Made by a program: the position numbers and the translations under genes. The notes beneath the pieces were generated by a model. The model was not told the DNA's origin. It did not search any database and saw only the letters and a list, made by a program, of their open reading frames with translations. From positions 372,001 to 436,000 of the forward strand of contig OZ025802.1 in the NCBI GenBank assembly GCA_964019425.1: 64,000 nucleotides of DNA, given 5' to 3'. Origin of the DNA: Flectonema sp. DT1601 (taxonomy: Eukaryota). This document shows positions 34,429 to 58,900 of the stretch, in pieces (position 1 is the stretch's first letter; each line of letters begins with the position of its first letter).

Positions 34429-34437
34429 AGACTTTTA

Positions 34438-36803: not shown

Positions 36804-36809
36804 CTTTTT

Positions 36810-37489
36810 CCCACTGGGGGTTGCAAGGCTGCTCGTTACCCCCCCAACATGCTGAGGTCATCAGAAATTAGAATAGCTAGATTCAAGACTGGATCTCATC
36901 ACTTACTTAGAATTAAAGAAGTTCCTCGGATGTGTCTCTTTTGTCAAAGAACGGAGTCTTCACCACGTCATCTGATACTGGAATGCACTGCTGCGGCGCT
37001 GATGTACATTCGAAAAGGAACTATTGGTGAAATTATTGAGGAAGCAAGAATCTCGAAGACTGCCTTGAGTCTTCCGTTCATGTTTGCTACACGTAACTTG
37101 CATGCCCTTGCCGGATTCATATGGAACATGGAGCAATGGGTTCAAACCTGACAGCACTCAGCTGTAGTTAAACAAGTCAATACTATTATCTTTTAGTATA
37201 CATCTTCTCCATTCTTTCTCCTTATCTCCTAGTTCTATGAGGACAACCGTAGGGCCCTTTCGGCTCGCAGGTGACCCAGTGGTCTTTGGCCACCGTCTTT
37301 ACGTTGATCTCTCGCTTTGCAAGCACAGTGTCAGGAGCTGCCGATCCGTGGAGGTCCTCTAACGGACTCCTGACAGTTGCACGCGTATCTTTGTCTTGTT
37401 AAAAAATAAGAAGAACGTTGGTGCTCAGAATATAAAAAAAGCAAAATGAAAGAGAGACAAGAAAGATGTGACAAAAAAAAAGAAAAAAG
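36810..37489 (+). mobile_element. 5'-truncated relative of the same LINE family (C-terminal CCHC region + 3'UTR)
   Basis: AARYPPNMLRSSEIRIARFKTGSH...CLFC...HLILEC is homologous to the end of the preceding ORF; homologous 3'UTR ending GATGTGAC-poly(A). Confidence 0.85.
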
Positions 37490-37543
37490 CTTTAATAATA
37501 ATAATAATTTTTTATTTATTTATTTATTATAAATAAAAAATAA

Positions 37544-39770: not shown

Positions 39771-41940
39771 GCGGGGATGAATAGAGCATACTTGCTGGAG
39801 AGCGGAGGTGGTGCGATGCTGAAACAATGGAGTTTCAACCGCTTGGAGGGAGCGGGGGACCCAGCGATGCTCGTCCTCATGAGGGCAGTGCGTGATATCT
39901 TGTCGAGCTGTGGAGTCCTCGGCAAGCTGGGCGACGTCCAGGCGTACGGGCCTTTGGGGGGCTGGGAAGAGGGGGAATGGACACAGGTGAGGGGCATGGT
40001 CCAGAAGGCGAGTGGGGCGGGGATCTCCCTGAAGATCGCCGATCTACCGAGAGAGGTGAGGCATAGCGCGTACGAGTGGTGCTACGGAGTCCCCGAAGGA
40101 ATCCCAGAGAGGAAGCCAATGGTGTCTTTCCCCATGGTAGAGATGATCCCACGACCCGCGTTAGGCGACCGGCGAGGCCGGGTAGCGGAGGCGGTAAGGA
40201 CACGCCCACTGGCGATAACACAGGGGCCGACCAAGCGGAGATTGGGAGGACGCTCGCCATCAGACCTGAAGAAGACAAAGTCGAGTGACCCGCGGAGGGA
40301 CTCGATGGACGGCCCAGCTGGAGCTCCTTCATCGCACATTGCATCAGATGGGCCACCCCTAGCGGAGGCCAAGGAAACCAGGCAACAAGGGTCGGACAAT
40401 GCCCAACAGCAAAACAGACTGCAGGAGGACCCCAAGCCGGGTAGCGGACGTGTGACACCGGACTGCGAACATCGCACAGGGCCCGAACAGGCAGAGACAC
40501 CAACAGGGGCTGACTCGCAACCGGGACGGGACAAACCGCCGACGGAGTCGAACGCGGAGGAGACAGCGTCGGCCGGTGGGATCGAGCAACAAGAATCAGA
40601 GAGCACACAACAGGAAATCAAAGTGCACGAAGATTCGAAGCAAGAGACCGTGACCCGACTCGCTGACGGAGAGGCGATACCTGTGCTGCCTGACTATGAG
40701 CTCCTGCAGGCAGAATTTGAGAAGGGAACAGCGACGGCGGAGGCACGTGCTGAGAGGGGGCGGCAGGAGGAGGAGGTTAATGTAGTAAAGAAGCCAGCCG
40801 AAGGAACCGAGCCACAAGAGTCAGAAAGCGCCCAACAGGAAAACAATCTGCTGGAAGACTCGAAGCTTGCAACCAAGACTGGGAGCGATGATGCAACACC
40901 GGTGCTGCTGGAGGAAGGGAGTTCCCCTCGAACCGTGTTGGATGAACAGACGGCGAAGGATCACGCAGGGGACGGCATGCGGCTGCAGCGAGCTGTGTCG
41001 TCGGAGACATCAGACTCCGAAATGACATGCATGGACACAGATGTGACGAATTCGGGCGATGATGACACCTCAACATGCTCGGCACCGTCGGAAGATCCAC
41101 CTGAGCTGGGAAAGTGTCTGTGTGGAGACAGATGGCTCCCGAGGAACTTTAGGAGGAGACCCTTGGCTAGTAATGGGTGGTGCAACAGATGCCGCAGGAA
41201 GAGACTGAAGGGTACGTTGATGGTAAACTGTAGCAAATGCGACTTCGACCAATGCTGTGATCTGGCCGCGCTGAAAGCCAAACTCGCCAAGGAGGCGAAA
41301 AAGACGAAGACGAAGAGAAGGAGAGCCCATGACAAGGCGCGGAAGGGACCGGCTGGAGCTGACCGGGACCTTCTGTATCTGAGTAGTACAGACGCGTCGT
41401 CGTCGGGTTCGAAGACATTAGGGAACTTTGCGAGAGAGCTGGTGAGACGGCGGAGTAATAGAGGTAGGCTGCGGAAGCAAGTGTTTGGAAACAAGAGGAG
41501 AGTAGGAACAGGGAGCCTAACACGGTCATGCTCAGGTAACGAAGAAGACGACGACTAGGAAGAAGGAACATGTGAAAAAAAGTGAAAGGGAAAAAAAAAA
41601 AAAAAAAAAAAAAAAAAGGGTGAGCAAAAGAAAAGAACCAATGCGTGCCCAGGGAACACTGCGAACGAGCTTACTATACTACTCAGGGGTTAAAAAGAAA
41701 TGGGGAAAAAAAAAAAAAAAAAAAAAAAAAAGCAAAACAAAACGTGACCTTGTGAGCCATCATGAGTTATAATTTACTTATCTTTTCTTCGCCATGGCGA
41801 CGGGTAATCGTGGGACCTGTAAAACCAGCTTAAGACTGTTGATGTGGTTTATATTTTTAGCACGCATTCATACATCATAAGGATCGCTGGTTCCGAGGGT
41901 TTGCTCTCCCACTTACCTGCCTCTCTATCCCTCAAAAAAA
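39771..41940 (+). mobile_element. 3' fragment of a divergent relative of the CRE-like element (ORF remnant 39777-41558, 3'UTR, oligo(A))
   Basis: First ~105 aa align by eye with the second RNase H-like fold of the 2840-aa ORF (MLKQWSF~VLGTWSA, SSCGVL~KACGGL, GPLGGW~GSTTHW, IADLPREVRHSA~LVEMPERMRTHA). Same G/A-rich composition, acidic tail and a Cys-rich finger; ends in oligo(A) at the SL. Confidence 0.7.
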
Positions 41941-41979
41941 AACCAACGATTCTAAAGCTACAGTTTCTGTACTTTATTG
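41941..41979 (+). other. Spliced-leader (mini-exon) sequence, diplonemid type, retroposed copy 1
   Basis: AACCAACGATTCTAAAGCTACAGTTTCTGTACTTTATTG, 39 nt, with the euglenozoan CAGTTTCTGTACTTTATTG 3' part; followed by TTTTTTCCC rather than a GT SL intron. Confidence 0.93.
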
Positions 41980-42631
41980 TTTTTTCCCTCCCTCGCCCCA
42001 TCCCCGTCAGCGAGTAGGAAAGCGCAGCTAGGAATTTTTCCACGCAAGCGGATCCCACAACCCGACCACCCTTCCCCACGCTCACCCCATCCACCCTCCC
42101 CCACCCCAACAAAAGAAGAAATCGGCGGCAGCCACGTGACACACTCGTGTTCGTGTAGCGAAGCGTTTCGGCGACTTCGAAGACGACGACGACGACGACG
42201 TAGAAGAGACGGTGTATGTGACTGACCTTCTTCTTCCTTATTTATTTGTTTACTTTTGTTAATTACTTCCTCTTAATTTCATTCCTCTCTTAGATTGTTG
42301 TTTATTTGCTTATTTATTTGTTTGTTTATCTGTCTGTTTATCTGTCTGTATATTCTGTTACTATCTGTTATTTTGTTACATTTATTTATCTGTCTACATT
42401 AGAGTACATTTTTGTTATTGTTAAATTTAAACATCTTCTTCACAGTTTTTTCCCTCCCTCGCCCCATCCCCGTCAGCGAGTAGGAAAGCGCAGCTAGGAA
42501 TTTTTCCACGCAAGCGGATCCCACAACCCGACCACCCTTCCCCACGCTCACCCCATCCACCCTCCCCCACCCCAACAAAAGAAGAAATCGGCGGCAGCCA
42601 CGTGACACACTCGTGTTCGTGTAGCGAAGCG
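41980..42631 (+). repeat. 186-bp direct repeat X (41980-42165 and 42446-42631) separated by a T-rich spacer ending CTTCACAG
   Basis: The two copies read as identical; the first follows the SL, the second follows an AG acceptor. Confidence 0.92.
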
Positions 42632-42693
42632 CTTAGCGCTTTAAAGTCTTTTAAGTCTTTTAAGTCGCCCCCGTCGCCCCCCGACCCCCACAG

Positions 42694-42747
42694 GGTATTG
42701 AACCCAGGTGGACCAGAAGACAGACGGTGACAAAAACCACTGCGCCA
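42694..42747 (-). promoter_or_regulatory. Antisense Pol III A box (TGGCGCAGTGG, 42737-42747) and B box (GGTTCAATACC, 42694-42704)
   Basis: Both fit the tRNA-type consensus with tRNA-like spacing (32 nt between boxes); present in both element copies. Confidence 0.6.
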
Positions 42748-42881
42748 AAGTATATTGTTGAAAAAAAAAATTTTTTTTTTTTTATTGTTTATTATATATA
42801 TTAATTAGGTCATATTTATTTAGAAGAATTTGGTATTACTTGTCGTTGTTTATTTAGAAAATACTAAGGAAGAAAGAGGAG

Positions 42882-42914
<33 letters not shown>

Positions 42915-42997
42915 AATTAGATTTTGCATAGGCATACTTGCAGAGGAGGAGATAAACGCGGGTCCTTCAGTGAGCTCTAGTACATCGGCGGGGTAGG

Positions 42998-43031
<34 letters not shown>

Positions 43032-43278
43032 CATCTATCTTCGGTCTACGAACGCTTTGAGTCGGCCAGCAGTCACAAACGGACATTGAAGGCGCGGATA
43101 ATTGTTGTTGCTGTGGAAACCTTGCTCTGCTGAAGAGGGAGTTGAAATTTTCCCCACCTGCATTCTGATTCGAGTTGTCTTCGAGAGTACTTTGCTTTTG
43201 TCAAAAGTTAATTATTCCTCCAGCTCATACGTCCTTCTCATCTTTTCTGGAGACTGGACCGCTGGTGAACGCGCAAAC

Positions 43279-43552
43279 AGAACAAATATTTTCTTTTGTT
43301 CTTCGTTAAGACTACACTGAGACACGGTCTTCCGCAAAACATCGCACGAACAGAACATATCTTTTCTTGTTCTCGTTTAAACACCGCTTAAGACAGCGAA
43401 AAGAACAAATCCTTTTTTTTTGTTCTTGTTTAAACTCTGCTTTGATACACGGTCTTCCGCTAGTCAGCGCGCGAGAAGAACATATCTTTTCTTGTTCTCG
43501 TTTAAACTTTGCTTTTAAGACCTGCAAACAGAGCATATCCTTTTTTTGTTCT
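43279..43552 (+). repeat. Five imperfect hairpin repeats AGARCA-N(11-15)-TGTTCT in the element 5' region
   Basis: Units start near 43279, 43352, 43402, 43477 and 43530, most followed by GTT(T)AAAC; also present at ~55243-55517. Confidence 0.7.
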
Positions 43553-43870
43553 TGTTAAAACTCTCTTTTAAGACAAAACTTTACGAATCAGCCTGCGGGA
43601 GAGGAGAAGGAAGAACTCTCTCACTAGCTTTGTTTGGTGCCTGTGGTGGTGACTACCATTCTGCGTCGGAACTGTACGGGGGTGACCGCATAGACAGAAG
43701 AGTTCGGAAAGCGGAGGATACGCGAGCCGGAAAAAAAAAAAAAAAAAAAAAAAAAACCTACTCCACACACACGTACAGGGCTAACAAGGAGAAGAGCAGG
43801 TAAGTCGATTGTCTTTTTTCGGGTTCCATACACAAATCATCCACAGCGAAGGGAACGGAAAAGGAAGAGT

Positions 43871-43916
<46 letters not shown>

Positions 43917-43919
43917 AGA

Positions 43920-46900
43920 ATGGAGAAAACAATGTTACTGTGTGGGTACGTGCTGCTGTGGGCACTACTAAGTGGAACGAGGGCGCAACAGACGTCCGGA
44001 GTGGGTAAGCAGAGGTTAGCCCCAGTGCCAGGCGGATGGCACACCCCTCTATTCACAACGCTGGACAAAGGCCCACTGTTTTCATCGCGCATCAGCCGAC
44101 GCGTAACACGCCCGATCCCCCCGCACCCATTTGTAACCCCCAACAGCTCAAACAGCCCCAACAATACGGCAAGCGGACGCGCTTTCCAACATGGACGAGA
44201 GGGGGTGTGGGTCCCGTGGAGGGGAACGGAAACGGCCGGGAACCGGGTGAGGCGAGACCACCCAAAGCCACCTCCAGACAAGGGAGGAAGGGAGCTCCTG
44301 AAGAGGGCGTCCCCGAAAGTGGCGTCCAAGGCGGCAAGGCGGCTGGAAAGGAGGAGGAGGAAGCTGCTGAAGGAACGGCAGGAGAGGTGGGAGCGGTGGG
44401 TGGGAGAGTTGGAGAAGTTCCACGCCAGGCGAGAGAGATTCCGCGCGGAGACAGAGAGGCCAAGGAAGAACAAGGCGGAGACACCGAAGAAGCGACGGGC
44501 AGGGCCCGAAAGGGACTGGACAAAGCCAGGAGGGCACAAGGCGGAGCCCAGACCATGGTATGCGAGGCCGTCAGACCTGGCAGGAGGAGGGCAAAGCAAG
44601 GAGAGGACGAAGTGCCCGGTGGTGGGGTGCAGCGTCTGGGTGAGGGGTGACCTAGAGTACCACTTCAAACAACACCTGAAGGGAGTGGTACCGGGGGAGG
44701 TAACGGCCCAGATGGCTTCCGACAGACTCGGAAAGCAGATCTGCAAGGCCTGCGGGGAGCTGAGTACCGGATTGGTGCACCAGACAGTGAGGTGTCGGGA
44801 GATGTTGGACCTCAAGGGACGGCTGGGGGTAGCGACGGGACCCGCGCCGGAACTGGCAAGCCTGAAGTGCGAGGGAGCAAAAGTATTTCGGGTGATTGGG
44901 GATGGGAATTGCCTGTTCAGGAGTGTGTGCCAACTCCTAGAGACGCCAGAGGGGTGGAAGGGCAGACATGGAGAGCTCCGCAGGAGAACGGCAGGGTGCC
45001 TGACCAAGAACAGGGAAAGGTTCGAGGTCTTCTTCCAGGACGCGGACGCATTCGGAGTATATGCGAGGGCGTTAGAAGAGGATGGATGCTGGGGCGATGC
45101 GTTGGCCCTACAGGTCATGGCAGAGGACCTACAGTGCCGCTTCGTCGTCGTGGTGAGGACGGAAACGCTGGTGGTGGAAGGGCCATCGGACCCGAAGCAG
45201 ACGCTGGTCTTGACCCTGCAGAACGGGTGTCACTACGACCCAGTGGAGGCATCCGAGGACTGCGTCGCGCGGCTGCTACAGAGCGCCCGGAGGTTGGAGT
45301 TAGTGTCGCCAGGCCCGCTGTCGCAAGCAGCAGGAGGCGAGCCGGCAGTGCTGCAGACAGCCTCCCGACAGGCCCAGCTGCACGAGTGCCCCCAAGCGGA
45401 GTGCCCGAAACACAAGGGAGGCTTCGAGGAGTGGGCGGAGCTCCTAAGACACGTGGACGAGCACGCATTCAGTGGCAACCCGCTGACGCATGGACAGTTG
45501 GCGAGGCTAGGCCTCCGGGAATGTCCGGTGTGCTGTGGGATCATCGGGCAGGACCAGCCGATGCATCCGGGGTGCAGTGAGAAACTGCAGAAGGTCCAAC
45601 TGGGGGACGTGTACACGGCGTTCCGGAAGCGGGTGCTGGAGAGCCAGAGCTTCCCCTCATTGGAGGAAATAGCCAGCAGGAGGAGGCCGATAGCGAAGAA
45701 GCTGCCGGTGCCCCTGTTGCACCATTTGGGGCGAGCACTCAAGCTGGCGCTTGACCTAGTCGTGGAGCGGAACGATGAGTGGGCATGGAAGCTGCTCTTG
45801 ATGCTCCCGACTTGTACACTGCGGAGGATACGGAGGGGGGGTAGGAGGTTGTCGACCAGCAATCTGACAGGGGCTGTCGACGACCTGCAAGCATGGATTC
45901 GGGGGGATTTTGAGGGACTGTGGAAAGCGGCGGCCCCCCGCAAGGCGACGGGAAGGCCAGCAGTGAAAGAGGCGGGGCAAAAAGGAAGGAACGACAGGGC
46001 CACGTCGCTAGCGAGGGAGGGTTGCCTGTCACAGGCGATCTCGGCCCTAGACGCGCCGCCGCCAGCAGAACGAACCGAGAAGGTGCTGGAGCAGATGCGC
46101 ACCCTACACCCGAGGGCGAGCGGACCCCCATCGGCCACGGCAGGGCAGGAGGTGCAGATAGCAGAGGTGGAGCTGCTAGCATGCCTACGCTCCTTCCACA
46201 GGGGGTCGAGTGGAGGGCCTTCGGGCCTCGCGCCGCAACACCTGAAGGACGTGGTGGAGCGGGGTGAGGTGCCGGGGCTGGTAGCCTCGATCACGGAGGT
46301 GGTGAGGATTCTGGCGAACGGGAGGGCGCCGCGGGAAGTAGCGCCGCTGCTGGCGGGGGCGAACCTGACGGCGCTGGAGAAAGAAGGGAAGCCGGGGGAG
46401 CACCGGCCAGTCGCGGTGGGGGAAACATGGAGGCGGCTGGTGGCGAAGATCCTGTGCGGGGCATACAGGTCCCAGGCGAGGAGCTCGTTGCTAGAAGTGA
46501 GACAGCTGGGAGTAGCGGTGTCGGGGGGAGTGGAGGCGGCGGTGCACACCCGGCATGAGTTCCGCGCGGAGCACGCGCTCTCGTCACAGAAAGTGTTCGT
46601 GAAGATAGACTTCTCGAACGCCTTCAACTGCGTGAAGAGGGGGGCGTTCCTGGATTCGACGAGGGATACCCTGCTGGAGAGCTGGGTCAGCTGGTGTTAC
46701 GGAGCGCCGACGTGGTTGCTGTTTGGGGACGAGAGGCTGAGCTCGGAGGAGGGCGCTCAGCAGGGGGATCCGTTGGGTCCCTTGCTGTTCTCGTTGGCAA
46801 TCAAGCCGGCGCTGCAGAAGGTGTTGGAGGCGAAGCCGGAGTTGGCGTGCTTCTACCTGGACGATGGGCTGGTGGCGGGCACCCTGGAACAGGTAGACAA

Positions 46901-49900
46901 GGCCCTCCAAATCCTGCAGAAGGAGACGGCGGAGCTGGGGCTGACGCTGAGGCCGGACAAGTGCCAGACGCACGTGCTCGACTCAGCCCAGAACACCCTG
47001 CCCTTGGGGTGGGGGTTGGAAGGGATGAGACCCCCACTGTACAACGGGGACTTCCTGGGGGCACCGTTCGGGACGGAGGAACACTGCCAGGAGTTCGTCG
47101 ACAGGAAGGTGGCGCAGCTGGAGAAGAAAGCGGAGCTGCTAGCAGACCTGCAGGACCGGCAGGTGGCCATGGTGCTCCTAAGGCAATGCATGGGCTTCTG
47201 CAAGGTGACCCACCTGATGCGATGCTGCACGCATGGGAAAATGGACACCTCGATGCGGAAGGTGGACGAGCTGATGAGGTCCACGGCGAGCCGAGTGTTG
47301 GGCCTGACACTGGAGGGGCCAAAGTGGATGCAAGCACAACTGCCGACCCGGATGGGGGGATTGGGGCTGCGGTCATGTGCAGAGCACAGGGGAGCAGCAC
47401 TATTGGGATCCCTGGAATTAGTCCAAGGGGTGAGCAAGTCACTGTGGGAGGGGTTCAAGGGGGTGCTGATGCCAGCACTGAAGAAGGGGTTGAACCTCGC
47501 CCTCCCGGAGGAGCTAAGGATAGAAGAAGACGGGCCGGGGCCGAACCCCCAGAGGCTGTCCTCGGCGAAACTGGACCAGGTCAAGAGAGACTGCCTGCTG
47601 GCGGGGGCGAATGACCCGCGCGATAAAGGGAGGCTGCTCTCCCTGCGCATGGATAAGGCGAGCGCATGGCTGCAACAAGCAGATGAAGAGTGCGCGATGG
47701 ACCCAGAGACGTTCAGGATCGCATGTGGGATGCGATTGGGCGCAGCGCTGTTCGCGGAAGGGGCAGTATGCAGGATATGCTCAGGCCCACAGGATAGGCA
47801 GGGATACCATGCCTCAATCTGTATCAAAAACGGCCACGTGCACCAGCGACACGAGAGGGTGAAGGAGGAGTTCATCTCCATCTTTAAGCAGGCGGGATTG
47901 CCGCTGCTGAGAGAACCCAGCCACCTACTGGGACCCAACAAGCAGAGACCGGGGGACTGGTACTGCCAAGAGGGGCTGAGGGAGGGGAGAGGCAGAGCCT
48001 TCGACATCACAGTGGTAAACCCGGGGAAAATTAAATTGTATAAAACCCCGGGGCAAGCCGCGAGAGAAGCAGAGTCCCTGAAAGGGAACAAGTACGCGGA
48101 GCAGTGCACGAAACACGGGATTAATTTCTCGACAATTGCGCTGGAAGCGTACGGAGGGATGGGACGGGAAGCAGTGGGGACCCTGAAGAAGTTGGTGCAG
48201 ATCTGCGCAACGAACTCGACGGTGCCACACCGGGAGATCGCGGGGGAGATGGCGAGGAGGATCTCGACATCGGTGGTAGTGGCGACGGCGGAAGCACTGA
48301 GAGCGAGGGAGGCGTCGGTGGCGATGGACTCAGTGAACCCATTGCCAAGGACGAAACCGCCGCCCGAGATGACGGAGAAGCCGACATCACAAGAGAGAGA
48401 ACCAAGACCGAGAGCGGAAACGGAAGAGATCCAGCAGCCGGAAGTAATGCGACAGTCGGCAGGACCGCCCCCGACGATGAGAGGTTTGCCGAACATCGGG
48501 AACTCCTGCTACCTCGACGCGTCCGTACAGTGCCTGCTGAAGGGCACGGCACTGACACAAGTGCTGACGGGGAAGGAGGAAGTGGGGATGTCGGGCCTCC
48601 TGAGTGGAGTGGTCAAAGGGAGTGGGGAGTGCCTGGAGAAGCTGTCCGAGATGTTCGACCCGCTACAAGACAGGCGGCAGGGGGAGGTAGTAGGAACCCT
48701 GACGTCCATAGTAGACGCCCTGTTGGAGGAGAAGAAAGAGGTGTGCGAACCGTTGTTCTCGGCAGTACAGCTGAAACAGCTGGTCTGCACGGGTTGTGCG
48801 GACGCCTCCGGATCGACGGATGAGTTGACGCTGATCCCACTGAGTGGCCGTACACCACAAGTGAGGCTTCAGCCGACGAAGGAGAGAGTCGAGCGGTCCT
48901 GCGAGAAGCTGTGCGGCAGCAATGAGGCCACGCTGGAAGAGAGTTTCGCCTCGCTCCCAAGCTCCTTGATCTTCCAGAGAGACAAGCAGGACACGCAAGG
49001 GTCCTTGGGATGGGAAGAGCGCTTCCAGGTGCAGGTCGGGGAGAGGGTGATGACGTACCAGCAAACGGGAGCGATCGCGCACCTCGGGAGTGACAACGCG
49101 GGGCATTACGTGTCATACACGTGGGACGGAGTAGGCTGGCAGAAGCAAGACGACAAGGCAATAAGCCAAGTGTCGACAGAGGAGATCCACGGGACGAAAC
49201 CAGTAGTAGTGGTCTACTCGAGGGTGGAGGGATCGACCCAAGAGGACGTCGGGGTGCCGGTGAGATGGATTCCGGTGGCGAACAAGGACCGGATGGAGGT
49301 ACGCGAGGCACCGCCGTCGGAGGAGGACACCGCGGGGTACACGTCCAGGGAAGAGGCGGAGTGTGTCCTCCGGACGCGAGTAGTAGGGGGGCAGACGCAG
49401 CGCAAGCTGCTCTTACTGGTATCGAGCGTCTGGAACGCGGAGATGGAGAAGCTGGGGGCGGCAGCATGCCTGATACACATGGGAACGCTCGACAGGAGGT
49501 TCACGTGGTCGGGCTGCCTACCGACATGGGACGAAGCGACTGCGGAGTACGTGGCAGCGCTGCTAGGGCTCAACGCGATCAGGGAGAGATCGCAACTGCT
49601 GGGGGGTGAGACACAGATCGAGGTGGTCATACCGCAGCAGGGGTGGGGAGCCGAGCAGCAGGAGGCGCTGAAGTTGGTAGCGCTCCCGTCGGTGATAGAA
49701 CACCAGGTGACGGAAAGCTCACGAGGGGTGGAGAACCTGGCCCTCTGGGAAGCGGAATCGGCGGCATGGGACGAGCCGGTGGAACTCTCGGAGGACGGGC
49801 TCGACTACTTGGTGATCGAGCTGGAGATGAATCTGGGGCTGTCCCAATTGAGGGGAAAGGCGGCGGAACCGGATGAATCCCAGTCGCTCCCAGGAGGGTC

Positions 49901-52442
49901 GACGGCATCAGGCGAAGACAGACCACGAGCCGAAGCGCCAGCCCAGGTGGAAGCGCAGACGACGGAAGCACAAGGAGCGGAAGCAGTAGGGCTGAGAGAC
50001 GAGCCAGCACAGGAAGTGGGACAACCCGAGGAAAAAGAGCCCCCATCCCCCGACCCCCCGTCGAAGGAGGAGAAGCTGTATGCGGTGGCGGTGGGATGGA
50101 AACCGGGAGTGTATGCATCGTGGGAGGAGGCGAAGGCACAGACGGAAGGGTGCCCGAATGCGACACACCAGAGTTTCTCCTCCAGGAAGGAGGCGGACAG
50201 GTTCGTAGAGAGGTGGCAGCCGGAGACCAGGGAACCGACCCGGGCCACGGAGGGAGTCAGCCCACGTAAGTGGTACGCAGTGGCGAGGGGCAGGGCGGTA
50301 GGCCTGTTCCAATGCTGGAACGAGGCGAACTCGATGGTGTCAGGCTACGCGGCGGCGAGACACAAGAGTTTCGCAAGCAAGGGGGAGGCGGAGGGATACC
50401 TCCGAACCCACCTGCTGGGGGAGGTGGTTGGCGAAGTAGGGACGAGGTACACCTTGGTGTACGCATGCGAGGAAGACCCGGTAACGGGCCGTCTGGGGGC
50501 GGCGGCGAGCTGGTTGGACACACACCGTTTCGAGGTGTTGGGCACATGGTCAGCTGGCCTGCCAGCGGGAGACACACACTGGGGGCGATACTTCGCAGCC
50601 CTGGTGGGGCTGGTAGCGGCCAAGGCGTGTGGAGGCCTCGTCCCAGCGGAGGCATCCCTGCTGCTGCGAGGAAGCACGACACACTGGTCGACGGACCAGA
50701 GAGAGGTGCTGGAGGAGGCGGAGTTGATGGGGAGGCGTACGACGCTGGTGGAGATGCCAGAGAGGATGAGAACACACGCGACGGAGGAGGCGGAAAAAGC
50801 GGCGAAGGAGGGCTCGACCTCAGTGACGGAAGCCGTGATGAAGGTTTTCACAGAGGGGGCAAAGAACTGCCTGGGACACGGGACACAGACGGGTCCCTTC
50901 ACGGTGCGGTGGGAGGGAAGACAACTGCGTCTGGAACCCCAGTACACAGAAGAGGGGACGGGATCGTCAGGCGGCCGAGAGTCGGTGGAAGGAGAAGACG
51001 CGAGGGTAGAGGGCCGAGACGAGCAGAGCCCGGTCCCAACCCCGAAGGGGGCCGTGCAAAGGGTAGAGGCGGGAGTCCTGGAGTTGAGCTCGGAAGGGTC
51101 GGAGGGAGATGACGATAGATCATCCTCCCCAGCGACAGGGCAGGACGAAGGGAACGGTTCCATGTCGGGAGGCTCCTTGGGGAGTCCAGGGACGTCGGAC
51201 ATGGAAGCGGAAGAACAGACGGACGAAAGGGACCAGTCAGTAGACCCGTCGGCAGCAGAGACCTCAGGCGAAAACCATCACCTGGCCGAGGACCTGCAAG
51301 CCGAGAAGGGGGACGAGCTGGACGAGACGTCCCACCACTCAGGAGAGCCACCGTCGTCAGACGGCATGGACGGAGTGGAGGGGTTGGAGGACCTGGAAGA
51401 CTCACAGTCGGAGATGGAAGTCGACGGAGATAATGTGACGGAAGGGTCAGTAGTCCAGTACGTCGAGGAGACGTCAGAGGACGTGGTCCAGGTGGCAGAG
51501 TCGGACACAGAGGAGGAGGGATCGTCAGACTCCCAAATGACCATGACGGTCGATGAACAGGAATGGGAAGAGGGAGCGGCGCCCGAGGGGAACACAGGTC
51601 AGATGGCCTGGATGCTGGGACTACACCCAGAAGGGGGGAACGCGGAAACACGACGGGAGGGCCAATCGGAGCCCCTTTCAAAGCTGGTGAACTCAGGCGA
51701 AACAAAACCAATGGCCGAGAGATCCAGTTTGGGGGCGAAGATGGGACCACGCGCAGTGGGTAGTGACGGGAGCGGGGAAGATGCAGAGAGATCGCCGGGC
51801 ACGGTGTCGACACCGAGCACGAGAGGGAGGACGAAGTACAGAAAGGGAATGGAGGAGGAGAGGGAGGAGTGTGTGTCGCCGAAGACAAATACGGGAAGGG
51901 GACGCACGAGAGGCCGGAAGGCAAAGACGGGGGCAAAGGGGGCCGGAAAGGAGGACCCAAGTCCGCAGGTGTTGCAGGCGGAAATGGGAGAGTCCACCCC
52001 GAGCTCAGGTGAACGGCAGGCGAGGAGGAGGTACAGGAAGGGAGAAGAGAGGGAGAGGATAGAGGTTCTCTCCCCAGACCCGAGCAGGAAAGCGAAGAGG
52101 AAGAGACGCAAGCAGAAGGAACCGGAGCCAGTGGAGGGCACCACGAGGGAACAGGCGCCGCGGAGTTACAACAGGAAACCCACACTGCGTCGGGTAGGTA
52201 AGGGAGACTCACCCGACACAATGGGGTACGCACACGGGCCCCCGGGCTCCCTGACCTCGTTCACGGACGCGGGCGTACGCCCGGAGCCGGCGGAACGAGA
52301 CGGACAAGGTGTGGCAGGAGCAGAGTTGGTCACAAGGTCGTCGTCACAGAGTGAGAAAAGCACCCAAGGAGAGATGAGGGAGAGAGAAGGGGATCCAACG
52401 CGAAGGGTCCTGGACTTCTCGTCGAAAGGGGGAAGGCGCTAG
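43920..52442 (+). CDS. Retrotransposon polyprotein (2840 aa): signal-like N-terminus, zinc fingers, OTU, zinc fingers, RT, CCHC-RLE, USP (C19), RNase H-like, 2x RNase H1 hybrid-binding domain, RNase H-like, acidic/basic tail
   Basis: OTU GDGNCLFRS/WGD/HY (~44885-45240); RT DFSNAFN, QQGDPLGP, YLDD, QLPTRMGGLGL (~46000-47400); CRIC..H...C, RHE, RPGD, FDITV, KGNKY (~47770-48150); USP GLPNIGNSCYL, AHLG..GHY, QDD (~48480-49220); YAVAVGWKPGVYASW and WYAVARGRAVGLFQCW (~50075-50410). First ATG at 43920. Confidence 0.92.
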   Translation: MEKTMLLCGYVLLWALLSGTRAQQTSGVGKQRLAPVPGGWHTPLFTTLDKGPLFSSRISRRVTRPIPPHPFVTPNSSNSPNNTASGRAFQHGREGVWVPWRGTETAGNRVRRDHPKPPPDKGGRELLKRASPKVASKAARRLERRRRKLLKERQERWERWVGELEKFHARRERFRAETERPRKNKAETPKKRRAGPERDWTKPGGHKAEPRPWYARPSDLAGGGQSKERTKCPVVGCSVWVRGDLEYHFKQHLKGVVPGEVTAQMASDRLGKQICKACGELSTGLVHQTVRCREMLDLKGRLGVATGPAPELASLKCEGAKVFRVIGDGNCLFRSVCQLLETPEGWKGRHGELRRRTAGCLTKNRERFEVFFQDADAFGVYARALEEDGCWGDALALQVMAEDLQCRFVVVVRTETLVVEGPSDPKQTLVLTLQNGCHYDPVEASEDCVARLLQSARRLELVSPGPLSQAAGGEPAVLQTASRQAQLHECPQAECPKHKGGFEEWAELLRHVDEHAFSGNPLTHGQLARLGLRECPVCCGIIGQDQPMHPGCSEKLQKVQLGDVYTAFRKRVLESQSFPSLEEIASRRRPIAKKLPVPLLHHLGRALKLALDLVVERNDEWAWKLLLMLPTCTLRRIRRGGRRLSTSNLTGAVDDLQAWIRGDFEGLWKAAAPRKATGRPAVKEAGQKGRNDRATSLAREGCLSQAISALDAPPPAERTEKVLEQMRTLHPRASGPPSATAGQEVQIAEVELLACLRSFHRGSSGGPSGLAPQHLKDVVERGEVPGLVASITEVVRILANGRAPREVAPLLAGANLTALEKEGKPGEHRPVAVGETWRRLVAKILCGAYRSQARSSLLEVRQLGVAVSGGVEAAVHTRHEFRAEHALSSQKVFVKIDFSNAFNCVKRGAFLDSTRDTLLESWVSWCYGAPTWLLFGDERLSSEEGAQQGDPLGPLLFSLAIKPALQKVLEAKPELACFYLDDGLVAGTLEQVDKALQILQKETAELGLTLRPDKCQTHVLDSAQNTLPLGWGLEGMRPPLYNGDFLGAPFGTEEHCQEFVDRKVAQLEKKAELLADLQDRQVAMVLLRQCMGFCKVTHLMRCCTHGKMDTSMRKVDELMRSTASRVLGLTLEGPKWMQAQLPTRMGGLGLRSCAEHRGAALLGSLELVQGVSKSLWEGFKGVLMPALKKGLNLALPEELRIEEDGPGPNPQRLSSAKLDQVKRDCLLAGANDPRDKGRLLSLRMDKASAWLQQADEECAMDPETFRIACGMRLGAALFAEGAVCRICSGPQDRQGYHASICIKNGHVHQRHERVKEEFISIFKQAGLPLLREPSHLLGPNKQRPGDWYCQEGLREGRGRAFDITVVNPGKIKLYKTPGQAAREAESLKGNKYAEQCTKHGINFSTIALEAYGGMGREAVGTLKKLVQICATNSTVPHREIAGEMARRISTSVVVATAEALRAREASVAMDSVNPLPRTKPPPEMTEKPTSQEREPRPRAETEEIQQPEVMRQSAGPPPTMRGLPNIGNSCYLDASVQCLLKGTALTQVLTGKEEVGMSGLLSGVVKGSGECLEKLSEMFDPLQDRRQGEVVGTLTSIVDALLEEKKEVCEPLFSAVQLKQLVCTGCADASGSTDELTLIPLSGRTPQVRLQPTKERVERSCEKLCGSNEATLEESFASLPSSLIFQRDKQDTQGSLGWEERFQVQVGERVMTYQQTGAIAHLGSDNAGHYVSYTWDGVGWQKQDDKAISQVSTEEIHGTKPVVVVYSRVEGSTQEDVGVPVRWIPVANKDRMEVREAPPSEEDTAGYTSREEAECVLRTRVVGGQTQRKLLLLVSSVWNAEMEKLGAAACLIHMGTLDRRFTWSGCLPTWDEATAEYVAALLGLNAIRERSQLLGGETQIEVVIPQQGWGAEQQEALKLVALPSVIEHQVTESSRGVENLALWEAESAAWDEPVELSEDGLDYLVIELEMNLGLSQLRGKAAEPDESQSLPGGSTASGEDRPRAEAPAQVEAQTTEAQGAEAVGLRDEPAQEVGQPEEKEPPSPDPPSKEEKLYAVAVGWKPGVYASWEEAKAQTEGCPNATHQSFSSRKEADRFVERWQPETREPTRATEGVSPRKWYAVARGRAVGLFQCWNEANSMVSGYAAARHKSFASKGEAEGYLRTHLLGEVVGEVGTRYTLVYACEEDPVTGRLGAAASWLDTHRFEVLGTWSAGLPAGDTHWGRYFAALVGLVAAKACGGLVPAEASLLLRGSTTHWSTDQREVLEEAELMGRRTTLVEMPERMRTHATEEAEKAAKEGSTSVTEAVMKVFTEGAKNCLGHGTQTGPFTVRWEGRQLRLEPQYTEEGTGSSGGRESVEGEDARVEGRDEQSPVPTPKGAVQRVEAGVLELSSEGSEGDDDRSSSPATGQDEGNGSMSGGSLGSPGTSDMEAEEQTDERDQSVDPSAAETSGENHHLAEDLQAEKGDELDETSHHSGEPPSSDGMDGVEGLEDLEDSQSEMEVDGDNVTEGSVVQYVEETSEDVVQVAESDTEEEGSSDSQMTMTVDEQEWEEGAAPEGNTGQMAWMLGLHPEGGNAETRREGQSEPLSKLVNSGETKPMAERSSLGAKMGPRAVGSDGSGEDAERSPGTVSTPSTRGRTKYRKGMEEEREECVSPKTNTGRGRTRGRKAKTGAKGAGKEDPSPQVLQAEMGESTPSSGERQARRRYRKGEERERIEVLSPDPSRKAKRKRRKQKEPEPVEGTTREQAPRSYNRKPTLRRVGKGDSPDTMGYAHGPPGSLTSFTDAGVRPEPAERDGQGVAGAELVTRSSSQSEKSTQGEMREREGDPTRRVLDFSSKGGRR

Positions 52443-53183
52443 GGACTCCACGAAGGAGGTCTCAAGAGTCGAGGAAAAGACAGAGCCAAGACCCCAGAGC
52501 CAACCCAAAACACATGGTAGAGGACGAGGGAGAACAAGAGCGGGAGCGAGGTTAGAAACGTGACCAAAGCCCCCGCGAAGCAGGAGACACAACCTGCAAC
52601 CAGACCCCCCCAAAAGAAAAAAAACCCCGGTCAACGAGGCAAACTCGGACCAAAACATGCTTTTCACCCCCCCCAGGAAACACCGACCAGTGGAGCCAAA
52701 GGCCGCACACATATTATAAAAATCAAAGGCCGCCCCCCAACCCAAGAAAAGGATGAAAAACTTTCAAGCGAAAAAACTTGACGTCCGTACGCCCCAGAGA
52801 TCAAAGGACGGACGACTCACACCCCCTTCTTTCGCCCCATTTTATTTACTGGTACAGCGACAAATGTAAAGCTGGGTAGACGACGAATTATCTTTTGTGC
52901 ACAGAGACAAGGGATCCATGAGAACAAAGGATCAAGAGAAGAAGGGCACATTCCCCATCCCAAAACCAGAAACATGAGAACTCATTAAATTGAAGGGTCA
53001 TGTCTTTTCAAGTCGAAAAATGCTTAAATGCTAAAGAAGACTGTCGTCCCCAGCTCGCGGGTTTTCCCTGTCGCTGTATGTCGAGACAACGATCAGAGTC
53101 AGAAGAAGGATTGTACTAATTAACAGTATAATGAAAAAGGACAAAGAGAGTAGTTTCCATTTTATCTTCCCGAATATAAAAAA

Positions 53184-53222
53184 AACCAACGATTCTAAAG
53201 CTACAGTTTCTGTACTTTATTG
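53184..53222 (+). other. Spliced-leader sequence, retroposed copy 2
   Basis: Identical 39-mer, preceded by the oligo(A) tail of copy A and followed by repeat X. Confidence 0.93.
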
Positions 53223-53870
53223 TTTTTTCCCTCCCTCGCCCCATCCCCGTCAGCGAGTAGGAAAGCGCAGCTAGGAATTTTTCCACGCAAGCGGATCCCA
53301 CAACCCGACCACCCTTCCCCACGCTCACCCCATCCACCCTCCCCCACCCCAACAAAAGAAGAAAACGGCGGCAGCCACGTGACACACTCGTGTTCGTGTA
53401 GCGAAGCGTTTCGGCGACTTCGAAGACGACGACGACGACGACGTAGAAGAGACGGTGTATGTGACTGACCTTCTTCTTCCTTATTTATTTGTTTACTTTT
53501 GTTAATTACTTCCTCTTAATTTCATTCCTCTCTTAGATTGTTGTTTATTTGCTTATTTATTTGTTTGTTTATTTGTCTGTTTATCTGTCTGTATATTCTG
53601 TTACTATCTGTTATTTTGTTACATTTATCTGTCTACATTAGAGTACATTTTTGTTATTGTTAAATTAAAACATCTTCTTCACAGTTTTTTCCCTCCCTCG
53701 CCCCATCCCCGTCAGCGAGTAGGAAAGCGCAGCTAGGAATTTTTCCACGCAAGCGGATCCCACAACCCGACCACCCTTCCCCACGCTCACCCCATCCACC
53801 CTCCCCCACCCCAACAAAAGAAGAAAACGGCGGCAGCCACGTGACACACTCGTGTTCGTGTAGCGAAGCG
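53223..53870 (+). repeat. 186-bp direct repeat X in copy B (53223-53408 and 53685-53870)
   Basis: Same arrangement as in copy A; second unit preceded by CTTCACAG. Confidence 0.92.
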
Positions 53871-54009: not shown

Positions 54010-54740
54010 TTTTTTTTTTTTTTTTTGGTTACACTCGTCTGTGCTTCCAGACTCTTTGTTTTTGTTCTTTTCACTTCTTTGTTTTGTCTTTCTTTTATAC
54101 TTTCTTTTGGTTTAAGTCTGACAAATTGGAAAACACGGGAAACATAGGTAGGCTCCGCCTGAGGACGTAAGAAGAGCGGCAACGGGAAAAAATAAATGGT
54201 CACGCGTCCTTGAAATTGGACACACGAAGCTAATTCGGTTACCATTCCTACCATCGATAAGGAAAAACAAAGAATCGAGCATATAACTAGAGCGGTGGTC
54301 AAAGACCACTTGAACAGCCCGAAGGCCTGCCCTCAAGAGAAATTTATAAGGAGAATAGGAGAAAAAGGAGACAGGAGTGTTGGAAGAGACACTGCGACAA
54401 CACCGAAGGTGATGTGCAGTTACCCAACCAGGAGATGATTGATAATGATGAAAATACTAAATATTGATAAAACACTTAAATGGCGACTACGTGTCACCTA
54501 CACAATTCCAAAGTCTCAGGTTGGATGCTTGTTCCATCCACCTGATCAACATCGCTACTGAAGGAAGCCAGCTGGTGGCAAAGATTGAGCCAAGACTGGC
54601 AGGAATGCCGTTGATGAGGATTAGATCACTTGATCGGTCCCATTTGCCTGTCAATGTAGAAAAGCCAAGGATTTCATATCTGGCTGCATCGAGTTTCTGT
54701 GATGGACAGCCTACGAGTAGGTGGAGTTGGTTGGATGGAG
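54010..54740 (-). mobile_element. Nested, inverted, 5'-truncated copy of the LINE at 37544-39768
   Basis: Reverse complement of ~39039-39768 with a poly(A) tail (T-run 54010-54026); absent from copy A; flanked by duplicated AAAAAATTTTT. Confidence 0.92.
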
Positions 54741-55923: not shown

Positions 55924-58900
55924 ATGGAGAAAACAATGTTACTGTGTGGGTACGTGCTGCTGTGGGCACTACTAAGTGGAACGAGGGCGCAACAGACGTC
56001 CGGAGTGGGTAAGCAGAGGTTAGCCCCAGTGCCAGGCGGATGGCACACCCCTCTTTTCACAACGCTGGACAAAGGCCCACTGTTTTCATCGCGCATCAGC
56101 CGACGCGTAACACGCCCGATCCCCCCGCACCCATTTATAACCCCCAACAGCTCAAACAGCCCCAACAATACGGCAAGCGGACGCGCTTTCCAACATGGAC
56201 GAGAGGGGGTGTGGGTCCCGCGGAGGGGAACGGAAACGGCCGGGAACCGGGTGAGGCGAGACCACCCAAAGCCACCTCCAGACAAGGGAGGAAGGGAGCT
56301 CCTGAAGAGGGCGTCCCCGAAAGTGGCGTCCAAGGCGGCAAGGCGGCTGGAAAGGAGGAGGAGGAAGCTGCTGAAGGAACGGCAGGAGAGGTGGGAGCGG
56401 TGGGCGGGAGAGTTGGAGAAGTTCCACGCCAGGCGAGAGAGGTTCCGCGCGGAGACAGAGAGGCCAAGGAAGAACAAGGCGGAGACACCGAAGAAGCGAC
56501 GGGCAGGGCCCGAAAGGGACTGGACAAAGCCAGGAGGGTACAAGGCGGAGCCCAGACCATGGTATGCGAGGCCGTCAGACCTGGCAGGAGGAGGGCAAAG
56601 CAAGGAGAGGACGAAGTGCCCGGTGGTGGGGTGCAGCGTCTGGGTGAGGGGTGACCTAGAGTACCACTTCAAACAACACCTGAAGGGAGTGGTACCGGGG
56701 GAGGTAACGGCCCAGATGGCATCCGACAGACTCGGAAAGCAGATCTGCAAGGCCTGCGGGGAGCTGAGTACCGGATTGGTGCACCAGACAGTGAGGTGTC
56801 GGGAGATGTTGGACCTCAAGGGACGGCTGGGGGTAGCGACGGGACCCACGCCGGAACTGGCAAGCCTGAAGTGCGAGGGAGCAAAAGTATTCCGGGTGAT
56901 TGGGGATGGGAATTGCCTGTTCAGGAGTGTGTGCCAACTCCTAGAGACGCCAGAGGGGTGGAAGGGCAGACATGGAGAGCTCCGCAGGAGAACGGCAGGA
57001 TACCTGACCAAGAACAGGGAAAGGTTCGAGGTCTTCTTCCAGGACGCGGACGCATTCGGAGTATATGCGAGGGCGTTGGAAGAGGATGGATGCTGGGGCG
57101 ATGCATTGGCCCTACAGGTCATGGCAGAGGACCTACAGTGCCGCTTCGTCGTCGTGGTGAGGACGGAAACGCTGGTGGTGGAAGGGCCATCGGACCCGAA
57201 GCGGACGCTGGTCTTGACCCTGCAAAACGGGTGCCACTACGACCCAGTGGAGGCATCCGAGGACTGCGTCGCGCGGCTGCTACAGAGCGCCCGGAGGTTG
57301 GAGTTAGTGTCGCCAGGCCCGCTGTCGCAAGCAGCAGGAGGCGAGCCGGCAGTGCTGCAGACAGCCTCCCGACAGGCCCAGCTGCACGAGTGCCCCCAAG
57401 CGGAGTGCCCGAAACACAAGGGAGGCTTCGAGGAGTGGGCGGAGCTCCTAAGACACGTGGACGAGCACGCATTCAGTGGCAACCCGCTGACGCATGGACA
57501 GTTGGCGAGGCTAGGCCTCCGGGAATGTCCGGTGTGCTGTGGGATCATCGGGCAGGACCAGCCGATGCATCCGGGGTGCAGTGAGAAACTGCAGAAGGTC
57601 CAACTGGGGGACGTGTACACGGCGTTCCGGAAGCGGGTGCTGGAGAGCCAGAGCTTCCCCTCTTTGGAGGAAATAGCCAGCAGGAGGAGGCCGATAGCGA
57701 AGAAGCTGCCGGTGTCCCTGTTGCATCATCTGGGGCGAGCACTCAAGCTGTCGCTCGACCTAGTCGTGGAGCGGAACGATGAGTGGGCATGGAAGCTGCT
57801 CTTGATGCTCCCGACATGTACACTGCGGAGGATACGGAGGGGGGGTAGGAGGTTGTCGACCAGCGATCTGACAGGGGCGGTCGACGACCTGCAAGCATGG
57901 ATTCGGGGGGAATTTGAGGGACTGTGGAAAGCGGCGGCCCCCCGCAAGGCGACGGGAAGGCCAGCAGTGAAAGAGGCGGGGCAAAAAGGAAGGAACGACA
58001 GGGCCACGTCGCTAGCGAGGGAGGGTTGCCTGTCACAGGCGATCTCGGCCCTAGACGCGCCGCCGCCAGCAGAACGAACCGAGAAGGTGCTGGAGCAGAT
58101 GCGCACCCTACACCCGAGGGCGAGCGGACCCCCATCGGCCACGGCAGGGCAGGAGGTGCAGATAGCAGAGGTGGAGCTGCTAGCATGCCTACGCTCCTTC
58201 CACAGGGGGTCGAGTGGAGGGCCTTCGGGCCTCGCGCCGCAACACCTGAAGGACGTGGTGGAGCGGGGTGAGGTGCCGGGGCTGGTAGCCTCGATCACGG
58301 AGGTGGTGAGGATTCTGGCGAACGGGAGGGCGCCGCGGGAAGTAGCGCCGCTGCTGGCGGGGGCGAACCTGACGGCGCTGGAGAAAGAAGGGAAGCCGGG
58401 GGAGCACCGGCCAGTCGCGGTGGGGGAAACATGGAGGCGGCTGGTGGCGAAGATCCTGTGCGGGGCATACAGGTCCCAGGCGAGGAGCTCGTTGCTAGAA
58501 GTGAGACAACTGGGAGTAGCGGTGTCGGGGGGAGTGGAGGCGGCGGTGCACACCCTGCATGAGTTCCGCGCGGAGCACGCGCTCTCGTCACAGAAAGTGT
58601 TCGTGAAGATAGACTTCTCGAACGCCTTCAACTGCGTGAAGAGGGGGGCGTTCCTGGATTCGACGAGGGATACCCTGCTGGAGAGCTGGGTCAGCTGGTG
58701 TTACGGAGCGCCGACGTGGTTGCTATTTGGGGACGAGAGGCTGAGCTCGGAGGAGGGTGCTCAGCAGGGGGATCCGTTGGGTCCCTTGCTGTTCTCGTTG
58801 GCAATCAAGCCGGCGCTGCAGAAGGTGTTAGAGGCGAAGCCGGAGTTGGCGTGCTTCTACCTGGACGATGGGCTGGTGGCGGGCACCCTGGAACAGGTGG

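What the first reader, a model, noticed from the sequence alone, without database searches (positions are those of the whole stretch)
41941..42631. Element starts with an SL exon fused to repeat X, while a second X keeps the splice acceptor: the trans-spliced and unspliced junctions sit side by side
Seen: SL(39 nt)|TTTTTTCCCTCC... at 41979/41980 and T-rich tract-CTTCACAG|TTTTTTCCCTCC... at 42445/42446. The SL is joined at exactly the base that follows the AG; the same holds in copy B. Established: trans-splicing replaces everything upstream of the AG with the SL, so a simple retrocopy would lose its acceptor. Inference: SL-X-Y-AG-X lets every new copy keep a working acceptor. One route is RT copying an unspliced RNA to its 5' end within X, then template-switching onto the trans-spliced SL-X RNA.
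Basis: partly seen in the sequence, partly recalled or inferred. Interest (0 to 1): 0.92.

Follow-up and report, generated by a model that had tools for sequence, protein, structure and literature searches.

The report
Retrotransposon that keeps its trans-splice signal
A young retrotransposon of a diplonemid protist begins with the host's 39-base spliced-leader exon fused to a 186-base repeat, while an identical second copy of that repeat sits behind a likely splice-acceptor site, an arrangement that would let each new copy keep the signal that trans-splicing normally cuts away.

Summary
Observation confirmed in both copies. The 39-mer is a real spliced-leader (SL) exon: in two sequencing runs and one unrelated contig it is followed by a GT intron. 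Here it joins repeat X exactly where the second X follows a T-rich tract and CAG. The element is an intact SLACS-like RT/RLE retrotransposon of a diplonemid (2840 aa, 35-member family). New evidence: (1) no ATG in the 1474 nt from the AG to the ORF (9.7 expected); (2) copies A and B diverged under purifying selection (dN/dS 0.20, pS 3.9%), so the head is not a recent local duplicate; (3) X1 equals X2 within each copy, while the only A/B difference sits in both arms, so the arms are homogenised; (4) each SL follows a short A-run behind a related element's 3' part. SL|X as a retrocopied trans-splice junction with a kept acceptor is likely (about 0.85-0.9). How X1 is renewed is open: RT template switch (0.42), DNA-level cycling of tandem acceptor units (0.30), whole inheritance plus gene conversion (0.20). 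No RNA data and no other copy's DNA could be read.

The parts
39777..41558 (+). Fragment C: C-terminal 593 codons of a related retroelement family, 5'-truncated
   Evidence: Two segments 33-41% identical to the C-terminus of family P0025/P0061 (OTU-RT-UCH-Cauli_VI), E 2e-15 and 8e-15
41559..41933 (+). Probable 3' UTR of C; holds two internal A-tracts, so C's true end is not mapped
   Evidence: Sequence; inference
41934..41940 (+). A7 run directly before SL nt 1 (likely tail of the upstream element)
   Evidence: role inferred
41941..41979 (+). Complete 39-nt spliced-leader exon, copy A, without intron
   Evidence: Same 39-mer followed by GT in SL genes
41980..42165 (+). X1 (186 nt), identical to X2 of copy A
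42166..42445 (+). Y (280 nt): start-stop ATG-TGA at 42216, T-rich tract, CAG acceptor at 42443-42445
   Evidence: acceptor use inferred
42446..42631 (+). X2 (186 nt), first exon segment after the acceptor
42632..43919 (+). Rest of the 5' leader, free of ATG, with four long A-tracts and 50-75-nt repeats
43920..52442 (+). ORF A, 2840 aa: zinc-finger-like motifs (232, 275, 490), OTU 327-414, RT 821-1019 (YLDD), CCHC/RLE-type motifs (1284-1392), UCH 1521-1766, two RNase H1 N-terminal domains
52443..53177 (+). Probable 3' UTR of A
   Evidence: Present with 2-6 differences per piece in run X1 up to 53116; end inferred
53178..53183 (+). A6 run directly before SL nt 1 of copy B (likely tail of A)
   Evidence: role inferred
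53184..53222 (+). Complete SL exon, copy B
53223..53408 (+). X1 of copy B, identical to X2 of B; differs from both A arms at position 143
53409..53684 (+). Y of copy B (276 nt; 2 substitutions, one 4-nt indel against A), CAG acceptor kept
53685..53870 (+). X2 of copy B
54020..54740 (-). Inverted 721-nt insert in B's leader, 98% identical to the 3' end of the RNase H-bearing LINE at 39039-39758; it adds 12 ATGs to the sense strand
55924..64000 (+). ORF B, open for 2692 codons to the window's end; 124 substitutions and one codon indel against A

Best explanation
This is the 5' head of an intact SLACS-like non-LTR retrotransposon of a diplonemid, in which SL|X1 is likely a reverse-transcribed trans-splice junction, the AG before X2 is a likely working acceptor, and X1 is likely re-copied from X2 when the reverse transcriptase switches from the unspliced RNA to the spliced one. 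Steps. (1) Shown: SL-X1-Y-AG-X2-leader-ORF in two intact copies. (2) Inferred: host read-through transcription crosses the element; trans-splicing at the AG gives SL-X2-leader-ORF, a capped mRNA whose first ATG is the ORF start, and discards X1-Y with its start-stop ATG. (3) Inferred: a plain cDNA of that mRNA would be SL-X-leader-ORF, with no acceptor, a dead end. (4) Inferred: productive copies come from RNA that still holds Y-AG; on reaching X1 the RT moves by homology to X2 of a spliced molecule and finishes at SL nt 1. This restores the acceptor, sets the 5' end exactly at the SL and overwrites X1 with X2, as strand transfer does for retroviral LTRs. (5) Inferred, weaker: the SL at the head is then where the poly(A) end of the next element joins (priming on the two T's opposite SL nt 1-2, or an end-to-end RT jump), which builds head-to-tail arrays C-A-B away from SL RNA genes.
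For: SL identity and GT donor right after nt 39. Junction at the exact exon end and at the base after CAG in both copies. 0 ATG in 42446-43919 against 9.67 expected, 0 of 2000 shuffles, 19 on the antisense strand; the only ATG between SL and ORF lies in Y in A and, leaving out the insert, in B. X1A=X2A, X1B=X2B, one A/B difference (T/A at position 143) present in both arms; the B-type base is also read in both runs. A and B: pS 0.039, pN 0.008, dN/dS 0.20 (0.07 in the RT-RLE core, P 3.5e-13), so they parted through active lineages. Both copies have exactly one Y-AG-X unit and begin at SL nt 1. Family of 35 proteins; of 15 listed, 13 reach the C-terminus and 2 the N-terminus, as 5' truncation would give. 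A template jump between direct repeats has been proposed for TART (PMC1636488, passage); end-to-end jumping by R2 RT is in print (titles only).
Against: Homogenisation rests on one substitution in two copies; X is constrained (1 difference where about 7 would be neutral), and at Y's rate the absence of arm-private changes has P 0.069. Gene conversion or unequal crossing-over between repeats 466 nt apart explains it as well. The switch must fall 3' of X position 143 to copy that base. In both runs the contigs run X-Y-AG-X, in one as a closed 492-nt cycle, which fits tandem units at least as well, though repeat collapse in assembly gives the same picture. Other pyrimidine-rich AGs lie further down the leader (42692, 43251, 43518, 43571) and could be the main acceptors. 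The 3' ends of A and C are not mapped. B's leader is interrupted by an insert with 12 ATGs.
Confidence: 0.42

Rival explanations
1. Consumable acceptor array. The unit is Y-AG-X in tandem. Unequal recombination or slippage between X1 and X2 makes SL-X-(Y-AG-X)n with n of 2 or more; trans-splicing at an upstream AG while the last is skipped, then plain retrocopying, gives SL-X-Y-AG-X. One unit is spent per round and DNA-level expansion refills it; no template switch is needed.
For: Direct repeats flanking Y are a ready substrate. It explains the homogenised arms. Contigs of 2 of 2 runs join X's end to Y's start and cross AG-X unbroken; one closes into a cycle. CRE elements of some species carry internal repeat regions (PMC12278014, passage); 5' monomer arrays of mouse L1 and 185-bp repeats of SLACS/CZAR are recalled, and a search for the latter found nothing.
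Against: Both copies here have n=1 although their lineages differ by 3.9% at silent sites. With X longer than the assembly word, contigs cannot show AG-X-Y in one molecule. The model predicts many n=0 copies; none is seen among 2.
Confidence: 0.3
2. The head arose once and is inherited whole: the unspliced RNA SL-X1-Y-AG-X2-ORF is the template (its 5' end set by 3'-end processing of the upstream element), the spliced RNA is only the mRNA, and occasional gene conversion keeps X1 and X2 alike.
For: Fewest steps per cycle; constant n=1 and the kept acceptor follow directly. SL addition and poly(A) addition are coupled in trypanosomes (start of abstract), and the A-run lies about 505 nt upstream of the AG in both copies. 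C-A-B could be one 5'-truncated cDNA of a read-through RNA.
Against: Needs conversion to have erased every arm-private change and spread the position-143 base within a lineage only 1.5% diverged overall; needs a separate reason for the 5' end at SL nt 1.
Confidence: 0.2
3. The SL is only an insertion target or target-site duplication of an SL-specific CRE/SLACS element, or the head is an assembly artefact; the AG before X2 is coincidence.
For: Relatives insert in SL RNA genes and make target duplications (PMC12278014, PMC3636483). A is flanked by A6-SL on both sides. SL|X was not seen in the two runs.
Against: No SL intron or SL-gene flank is in the window; the join falls on both the exon end and the base after CAG; X-Y-AG-X is present in two other runs; the leader is free of ATG from that AG on; both ORFs are intact.
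Confidence: 0.08

Closest known systems
CRE clade, SL-gene-specific elements SLACS, CZAR, CRE1, CRE2 (PMC12278014, PMC3447711: passages)
   Same: Single ORF with zinc fingers, RT and RLE-type motifs; tied to the SL sequence; nearest named protein is D. papillatum 'Retrotransposable element SLACS 132 kDa protein' (38% identity, E 7.7e-109).
   Different: Those interrupt the SL RNA gene and are thought to be transcribed from its +1; here the whole exon is intact, no SL gene is present, the SL is joined as a spliced exon, and the element carries its own acceptor behind a repeated first exon. ORF 2840 aa with OTU, UCH and RNase H1-N domains.
Diplonema papillatum SLACS-like proteins (KAJ9439003.1 = P0282)
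   Same: 36% identity over 940 aa of the RT-RLE core, and OTU-RT-UCH in the same order.
   Different: Only auto-annotated; the genome paper defers TE analysis. Their 5' DNA could not be read here.
Drosophila TART perfect non-terminal repeats (PMC5537684 legend, PMC1636488 passage)
   Same: Non-LTR element with a direct repeat for which an RT template jump is proposed to rebuild 5' sequence; head-to-tail arrays.
   Different: TART's repeats lie in the 5' and 3' UTRs and serve telomeres; here both lie at the 5' end around a trans-splice acceptor.
SL-tagged retrogenes of dinoflagellates (PMC12014239, start of abstract only)
   Same: An SL copied into DNA marks an RNA intermediate.
   Different: Those are passive gene copies with SL remnants; here an autonomous element keeps an exact SL plus the original acceptor and first exon twice.

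Membership tests
CRE/SLACS SL-gene-specific retrotransposons | Single ORF with non-LTR reverse transcriptase | tested here: met
   RVT_1 E 6.7e-17 at 821-1019, YLDD at 979
CRE/SLACS SL-gene-specific retrotransposons | Restriction-like endonuclease motif after a CCHC knuckle | tested here: met
   CCHC at 1284, RPGD at 1343, K..KY at 1388 (motif pattern recalled), aligned with the D. papillatum SLACS-like protein; activity not tested
CRE/SLACS SL-gene-specific retrotransposons | N-terminal zinc-finger-like motifs | tested here: met
   Motifs at 232, 275, 490
CRE/SLACS SL-gene-specific retrotransposons | 3' poly(A) tail | tested here: inconclusive
   A6 at 53178-53183 after 735 nt of probable 3' UTR; the end is not mapped by a second copy
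CRE/SLACS SL-gene-specific retrotransposons | Insertion inside an SL RNA gene at the conserved position, with target-site duplication | tested here: not met
   No GT intron or SL-gene flank around either SL; exon whole; only A6 plus the SL head is shared at the two ends of A. Other copies could not be read.
CRE/SLACS SL-gene-specific retrotransposons | RT phylogeny grouping with CRE1/SLACS/CZAR | not tested
   No named kinetoplastid reference was returned; placement rests on the annotation of the nearest named hit. Only solved-structure hit: R2 protein, E 1.6e-05
Trans-spliced diplonemid transcript (SL added at an AG after a pyrimidine tract) | The 39-mer is an SL exon with a GT donor after it in its gene | tested here: met
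Trans-spliced diplonemid transcript (SL added at an AG after a pyrimidine tract) | SL is added at 42446/53685 in RNA | not testable with these tools
   Both runs are contigs of unknown kind
LTR-like repeat renewed at each transposition (TART PNTR, retroviral R) | Repeat arms identical within a copy, different between copies | tested here: met
   2 of 2 copies, one informative site
LTR-like repeat renewed at each transposition (TART PNTR, retroviral R) | Renewal is by RT strand transfer, not DNA recombination | not testable with these tools
   Needs a copy survey or a transposition assay

The most novel reading that the evidence does not exclude
A non-LTR retrotransposon has built an LTR-like device out of trans-splicing: it makes a spliced mRNA and an unspliced template, rebuilds SL-X-Y-AG-X by strand transfer in each round, and its reverse-transcribed SL heads then serve as new SL landing sites, which frees an SL-targeting lineage from the SL gene array and lets several families stack head to tail at many loci.
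Probability: 0.3. Interest if true: 0.9.

Novelty: new variant of a known kind. Interest (0 to 1): 0.72.

Why it matters
In organisms that trans-splice every mRNA, a retroelement loses its splice acceptor each time its mRNA is copied, just as other LINEs would lose an upstream promoter. Known answers are to sit in the SL gene (SLACS/CRE) or to carry a 5' promoter or ribozyme (ingi/L1Tc, recalled). This element shows a third answer written in its DNA: a duplicated first exon around a kept acceptor, with arms that evolve together. It makes the question directly testable, since counting Y-AG-X units and arm variants over some 35 copies of one genome separates the mechanisms. I found no description of such a head in five searches; the library lacks most subscription papers and the older SLACS/CZAR/CRE papers, so this is not proof of absence.

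Tried and rejected
No whole genome is held, so other copies' heads could not be tabulated. No RNA holder listed; this says nothing on expression. Metagenome scans: X 36-mer 0 hits; RT protein 167 pattern matches, 0 confirmed. Viral collection: SL|X junction 0 hits; RT-RLE protein 2 matches, 0 confirmed. Runs X1 and X2 gave no cover on 42646-42760 and no listed SL|X or X2|leader join; a hole in such contigs proves nothing. Contig depth (X-Y 9.4 against 2-4.2 for ORF pieces in X2; 2.2 against 2-3.1 in X1) points both ways and is no copy number, so I did not use it. Rfam: 0 matches in the window at gathering score and 0 at E up to 5 in 41500-44000, so no known ribozyme at the X/Y or X/leader border; folding z-scores were -0.3 (X), -1.2 (SL-X), 0.4 (X/Y), -2.5 (X/leader, a short hairpin across the border), -1.2 (leader start), too weak to build on. 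X, Y and the leader have no match in either 3' UTR apart from A-runs, so a Penelope- or TART-type 5'/3' repeat is rejected. No target duplication other than A6 plus the SL head. X starts with T6-CCC, like the T-tract behind the SL gene in L001; I considered an SL gene with its intron deleted, but the likeness is about 10 nt and does not explain Y-AG-X2. C shows no significant match to ORF A itself, only to family P0025. The Atlas gave only unnamed eukaryotic clusters for the RLE part. Earlier-finding look-ups by place, sequence and words for the element were empty. My recollection of SL motifs in a virophage paper was not borne out (PMC6905037, 0 hits). The viral contig could not be searched for a capsid gene. 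Supplements: only those of PMC10161547 were searched; its main supplementary text gave no hit for the SL terms and may not be among the files held.

Full report
Setting. Bases 1-33,700 hold long, closely spaced ORFs on the minus strand. A THUMP/methyltransferase gene is 74% identical to a Flectonema neradi protein and 39-42% to Diplonema and Lacrimia proteins, so the host is a diplonemid. From about 34,400 the window is a cluster of retroelements on the plus strand: RNase H-bearing LINE fragments (34,400-39,758), fragment C (39,777-41,933), element A (41,941-53,183) and element B (53,184 to the window's end).

The observation. A starts with a 39-mer, then X1 (186 nt), Y (280 nt, ending in a T-rich tract and CTTCACAG), then X2, identical to X1. 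B has the same plan. The 39-mer is an SL exon. It differs at 2 of 39 positions from a published euglenozoan SL (PMC3795323, one table passage). In both sequencing runs that hold the element, contigs carry it between a different upstream flank and a downstream flank starting GT. L001, a stray contig in a bacterial MAG, has the identical 39-mer followed by a GT intron within a repeat of 5S rRNA and tRNA genes. The window has neither flank. So the SL ends at its donor site and X begins at the base after CAG, which is what trans-splicing makes. An arbitrary repeat start would follow CAG with probability 0.014, and 95 of 8510 AGs have as pyrimidine-rich a 150-nt tract.

The element. ORF A is 2840 aa with OTU, RT, UCH and two RNase H1 N-terminal domains, zinc-finger-like motifs and RLE-type motifs. 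ORF B is open to the window's end. The nearest named relative is the D. papillatum 'SLACS 132 kDa protein' (38%, E 7.7e-109); one such protein has OTU-RT-UCH in the same order and 36% identity over 940 aa. The family has 35 members at 90% identity; the 15 listed lie on 15 contigs of different length, are 94-99.5% identical to A, and 13 of 15 reach the C-terminus while 2 of 15 reach the N-terminus. Whether all come from one assembly is not known.

Is the acceptor used? Indirectly, yes. From 42446 to the ORF start, 1474 nt hold no ATG; dinucleotide shuffles give 9.67 on average and 0 of 2000 give none; the antisense strand has 19 and host between-ORF DNA 14.8 per kb. The one ATG between SL and ORF is a start-stop in Y, which splicing would remove; Y's own shortage is not significant (1 against 3.7, P 0.08). 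Against: four other pyrimidine-rich AGs lie in the leader, and B's leader now carries an inverted LINE piece with 12 ATGs.

Is the head a one-off? No. A and B differ at 3.9% of silent and 0.8% of replacement sites (dN/dS 0.20; 0.07 in the RT-RLE core), so they parted through active lineages and both kept the head. X1 equals X2 in A and in B, and the single A/B difference in X (position 143, T in A, A in B) is in both arms; both runs read the B-type base. Independent arms would need the same change twice. The arms are therefore homogenised. The caveat is real: one site, two copies, and X is constrained, so the lack of private changes alone has P between 0.069 (Y's rate) and 0.003 (ORF rate). 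Contigs in 2 of 2 other runs join the end of X to the start of Y and cross AG-X, with their own indels in Y; in X1 the 492-nt contig closes on itself (43 pieces not shown). This confirms X-Y-AG-X outside this assembly but cannot count units.

What precedes the SL. Both SLs follow a short A-run (7 and 6 nt). Upstream of A lies C, the C-terminal part of a related family (33-41% identity in two segments to P0025/P0061). Upstream of B lies A's probable 3' UTR, seen in run X1 up to 53,116. So twice a related element's 3' part meets SL nt 1 through A's. This fits priming at SL nt 1, an end-to-end RT jump (R2 precedent, titles only), or one long cDNA of a read-through RNA. The ends of A and C are not mapped, so this step is the weakest.

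Mechanism. The shared core is likely (0.85-0.9): read-through transcription, trans-splicing at the AG, a spliced mRNA, and a retrocopied SL|X junction. For renewal of X1 I favour an RT switch from unspliced to spliced RNA inside X (0.42), because it gives at once one unit per head, a 5' end at SL nt 1 and identical arms. DNA-level expansion of Y-AG-X with splicing at an upstream acceptor (0.30) and whole inheritance with gene conversion (0.20) remain open. Pure target duplication or artefact is unlikely (0.08).

Comparison with what is known. CRE-clade elements have one ORF, RT, RLE, zinc fingers, poly(A), and insert at one position of SL RNA genes with target duplications (PMC12278014, passages; PMC3636483, passages and section 9 part 1); SLACS is thought to be transcribed from +1 of the interrupted gene (PMC3447711, passages). 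This element meets the protein features but not the insertion feature at this locus, so I call it SLACS-like and do not file it as an SL-gene-specific SLACS. A jump between direct repeats is proposed for TART (PMC1636488, one passage; PMC5537684, passages). A protease domain (Ulp1) is known in NeSL/Utopia (PMC4640811, passages). PMC2881922 (passages) covers promoter solutions of non-LTR elements. The D. papillatum genome paper lists SLACS-type ORFs but defers their analysis (PMC10161547, passages and supplement hits). Searches (listings only) showed no element with a retrocopied SL plus a kept acceptor.

Verdict. Real, well supported as anatomy, mechanism partly open. New variant of a known kind; interest 0.72.

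Noticed in passing
L003-L010 (IMGVR_UViG_3300046534_001516, 237,777 bp) and L002 (contig in a Deltaproteobacteria MAG): The same diplonemid SL exon (exact, or one change at nt 39) is written into the DNA at 8 distinct places of an AT-rich contig filed as viral, plus a 2-mismatch copy, each 18-19 nt behind an AAAA(T/A)TGA motif (mimivirus-type early promoter; label recalled) and mostly 40-70 nt before the first ATG, with no intron; neighbours include Bro-N and ankyrin genes. L002 shows the same pattern. Likely a giant virus of a diplonemid that hard-codes or has captured the host leader; earlier notes report this for dinoflagellate and kinetoplastid leaders, none listed for diplonemids. Capsid gene not checked.
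   Followed up: partly
window 43920-43990, and N-terminus of P0059/P0061: Both element families begin with a short hydrophobic stretch that looks like a signal peptide, odd for a retrotransposon protein; no predictor was run.
   Followed up: no
window 43920-52442; P0061 (4730 aa), P0282 (3379 aa): Giant SLACS-like ORFs of diplonemids carry two deubiquitinase-type domains (OTU before RT, UCH after RLE) and, in this host, two RNase H1 N-terminal domains; even the non-core parts are under purifying selection (dN/dS 0.23-0.33).
   Followed up: partly
window 54020-54740 and 39039-39758: A 5'-truncated copy of an RNase H-bearing LINE has inserted in reverse into the A10-T13 run of B's leader, with a partly duplicated A/T run at its ends; a second LINE family is thus also recently active.
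   Followed up: partly
window 42881-43912 and 41591-41731: Four A-tracts of about 20-40 nt at conserved places in the 5' leader (lengths vary between A and B) and two behind ORF C; purpose unknown.
   Followed up: no
window 3059-33695: Host genes here appear as long uninterrupted ORFs, closely packed on one strand, more compact than described for D. papillatum.
   Followed up: no
L001 1-2578: A contig in a Cognatishimia MAG is eukaryotic: SL gene, 5S rRNA, U5, U6, SRP RNA and many tRNAs in one cluster, a diplonemid contaminant.
   Followed up: partly
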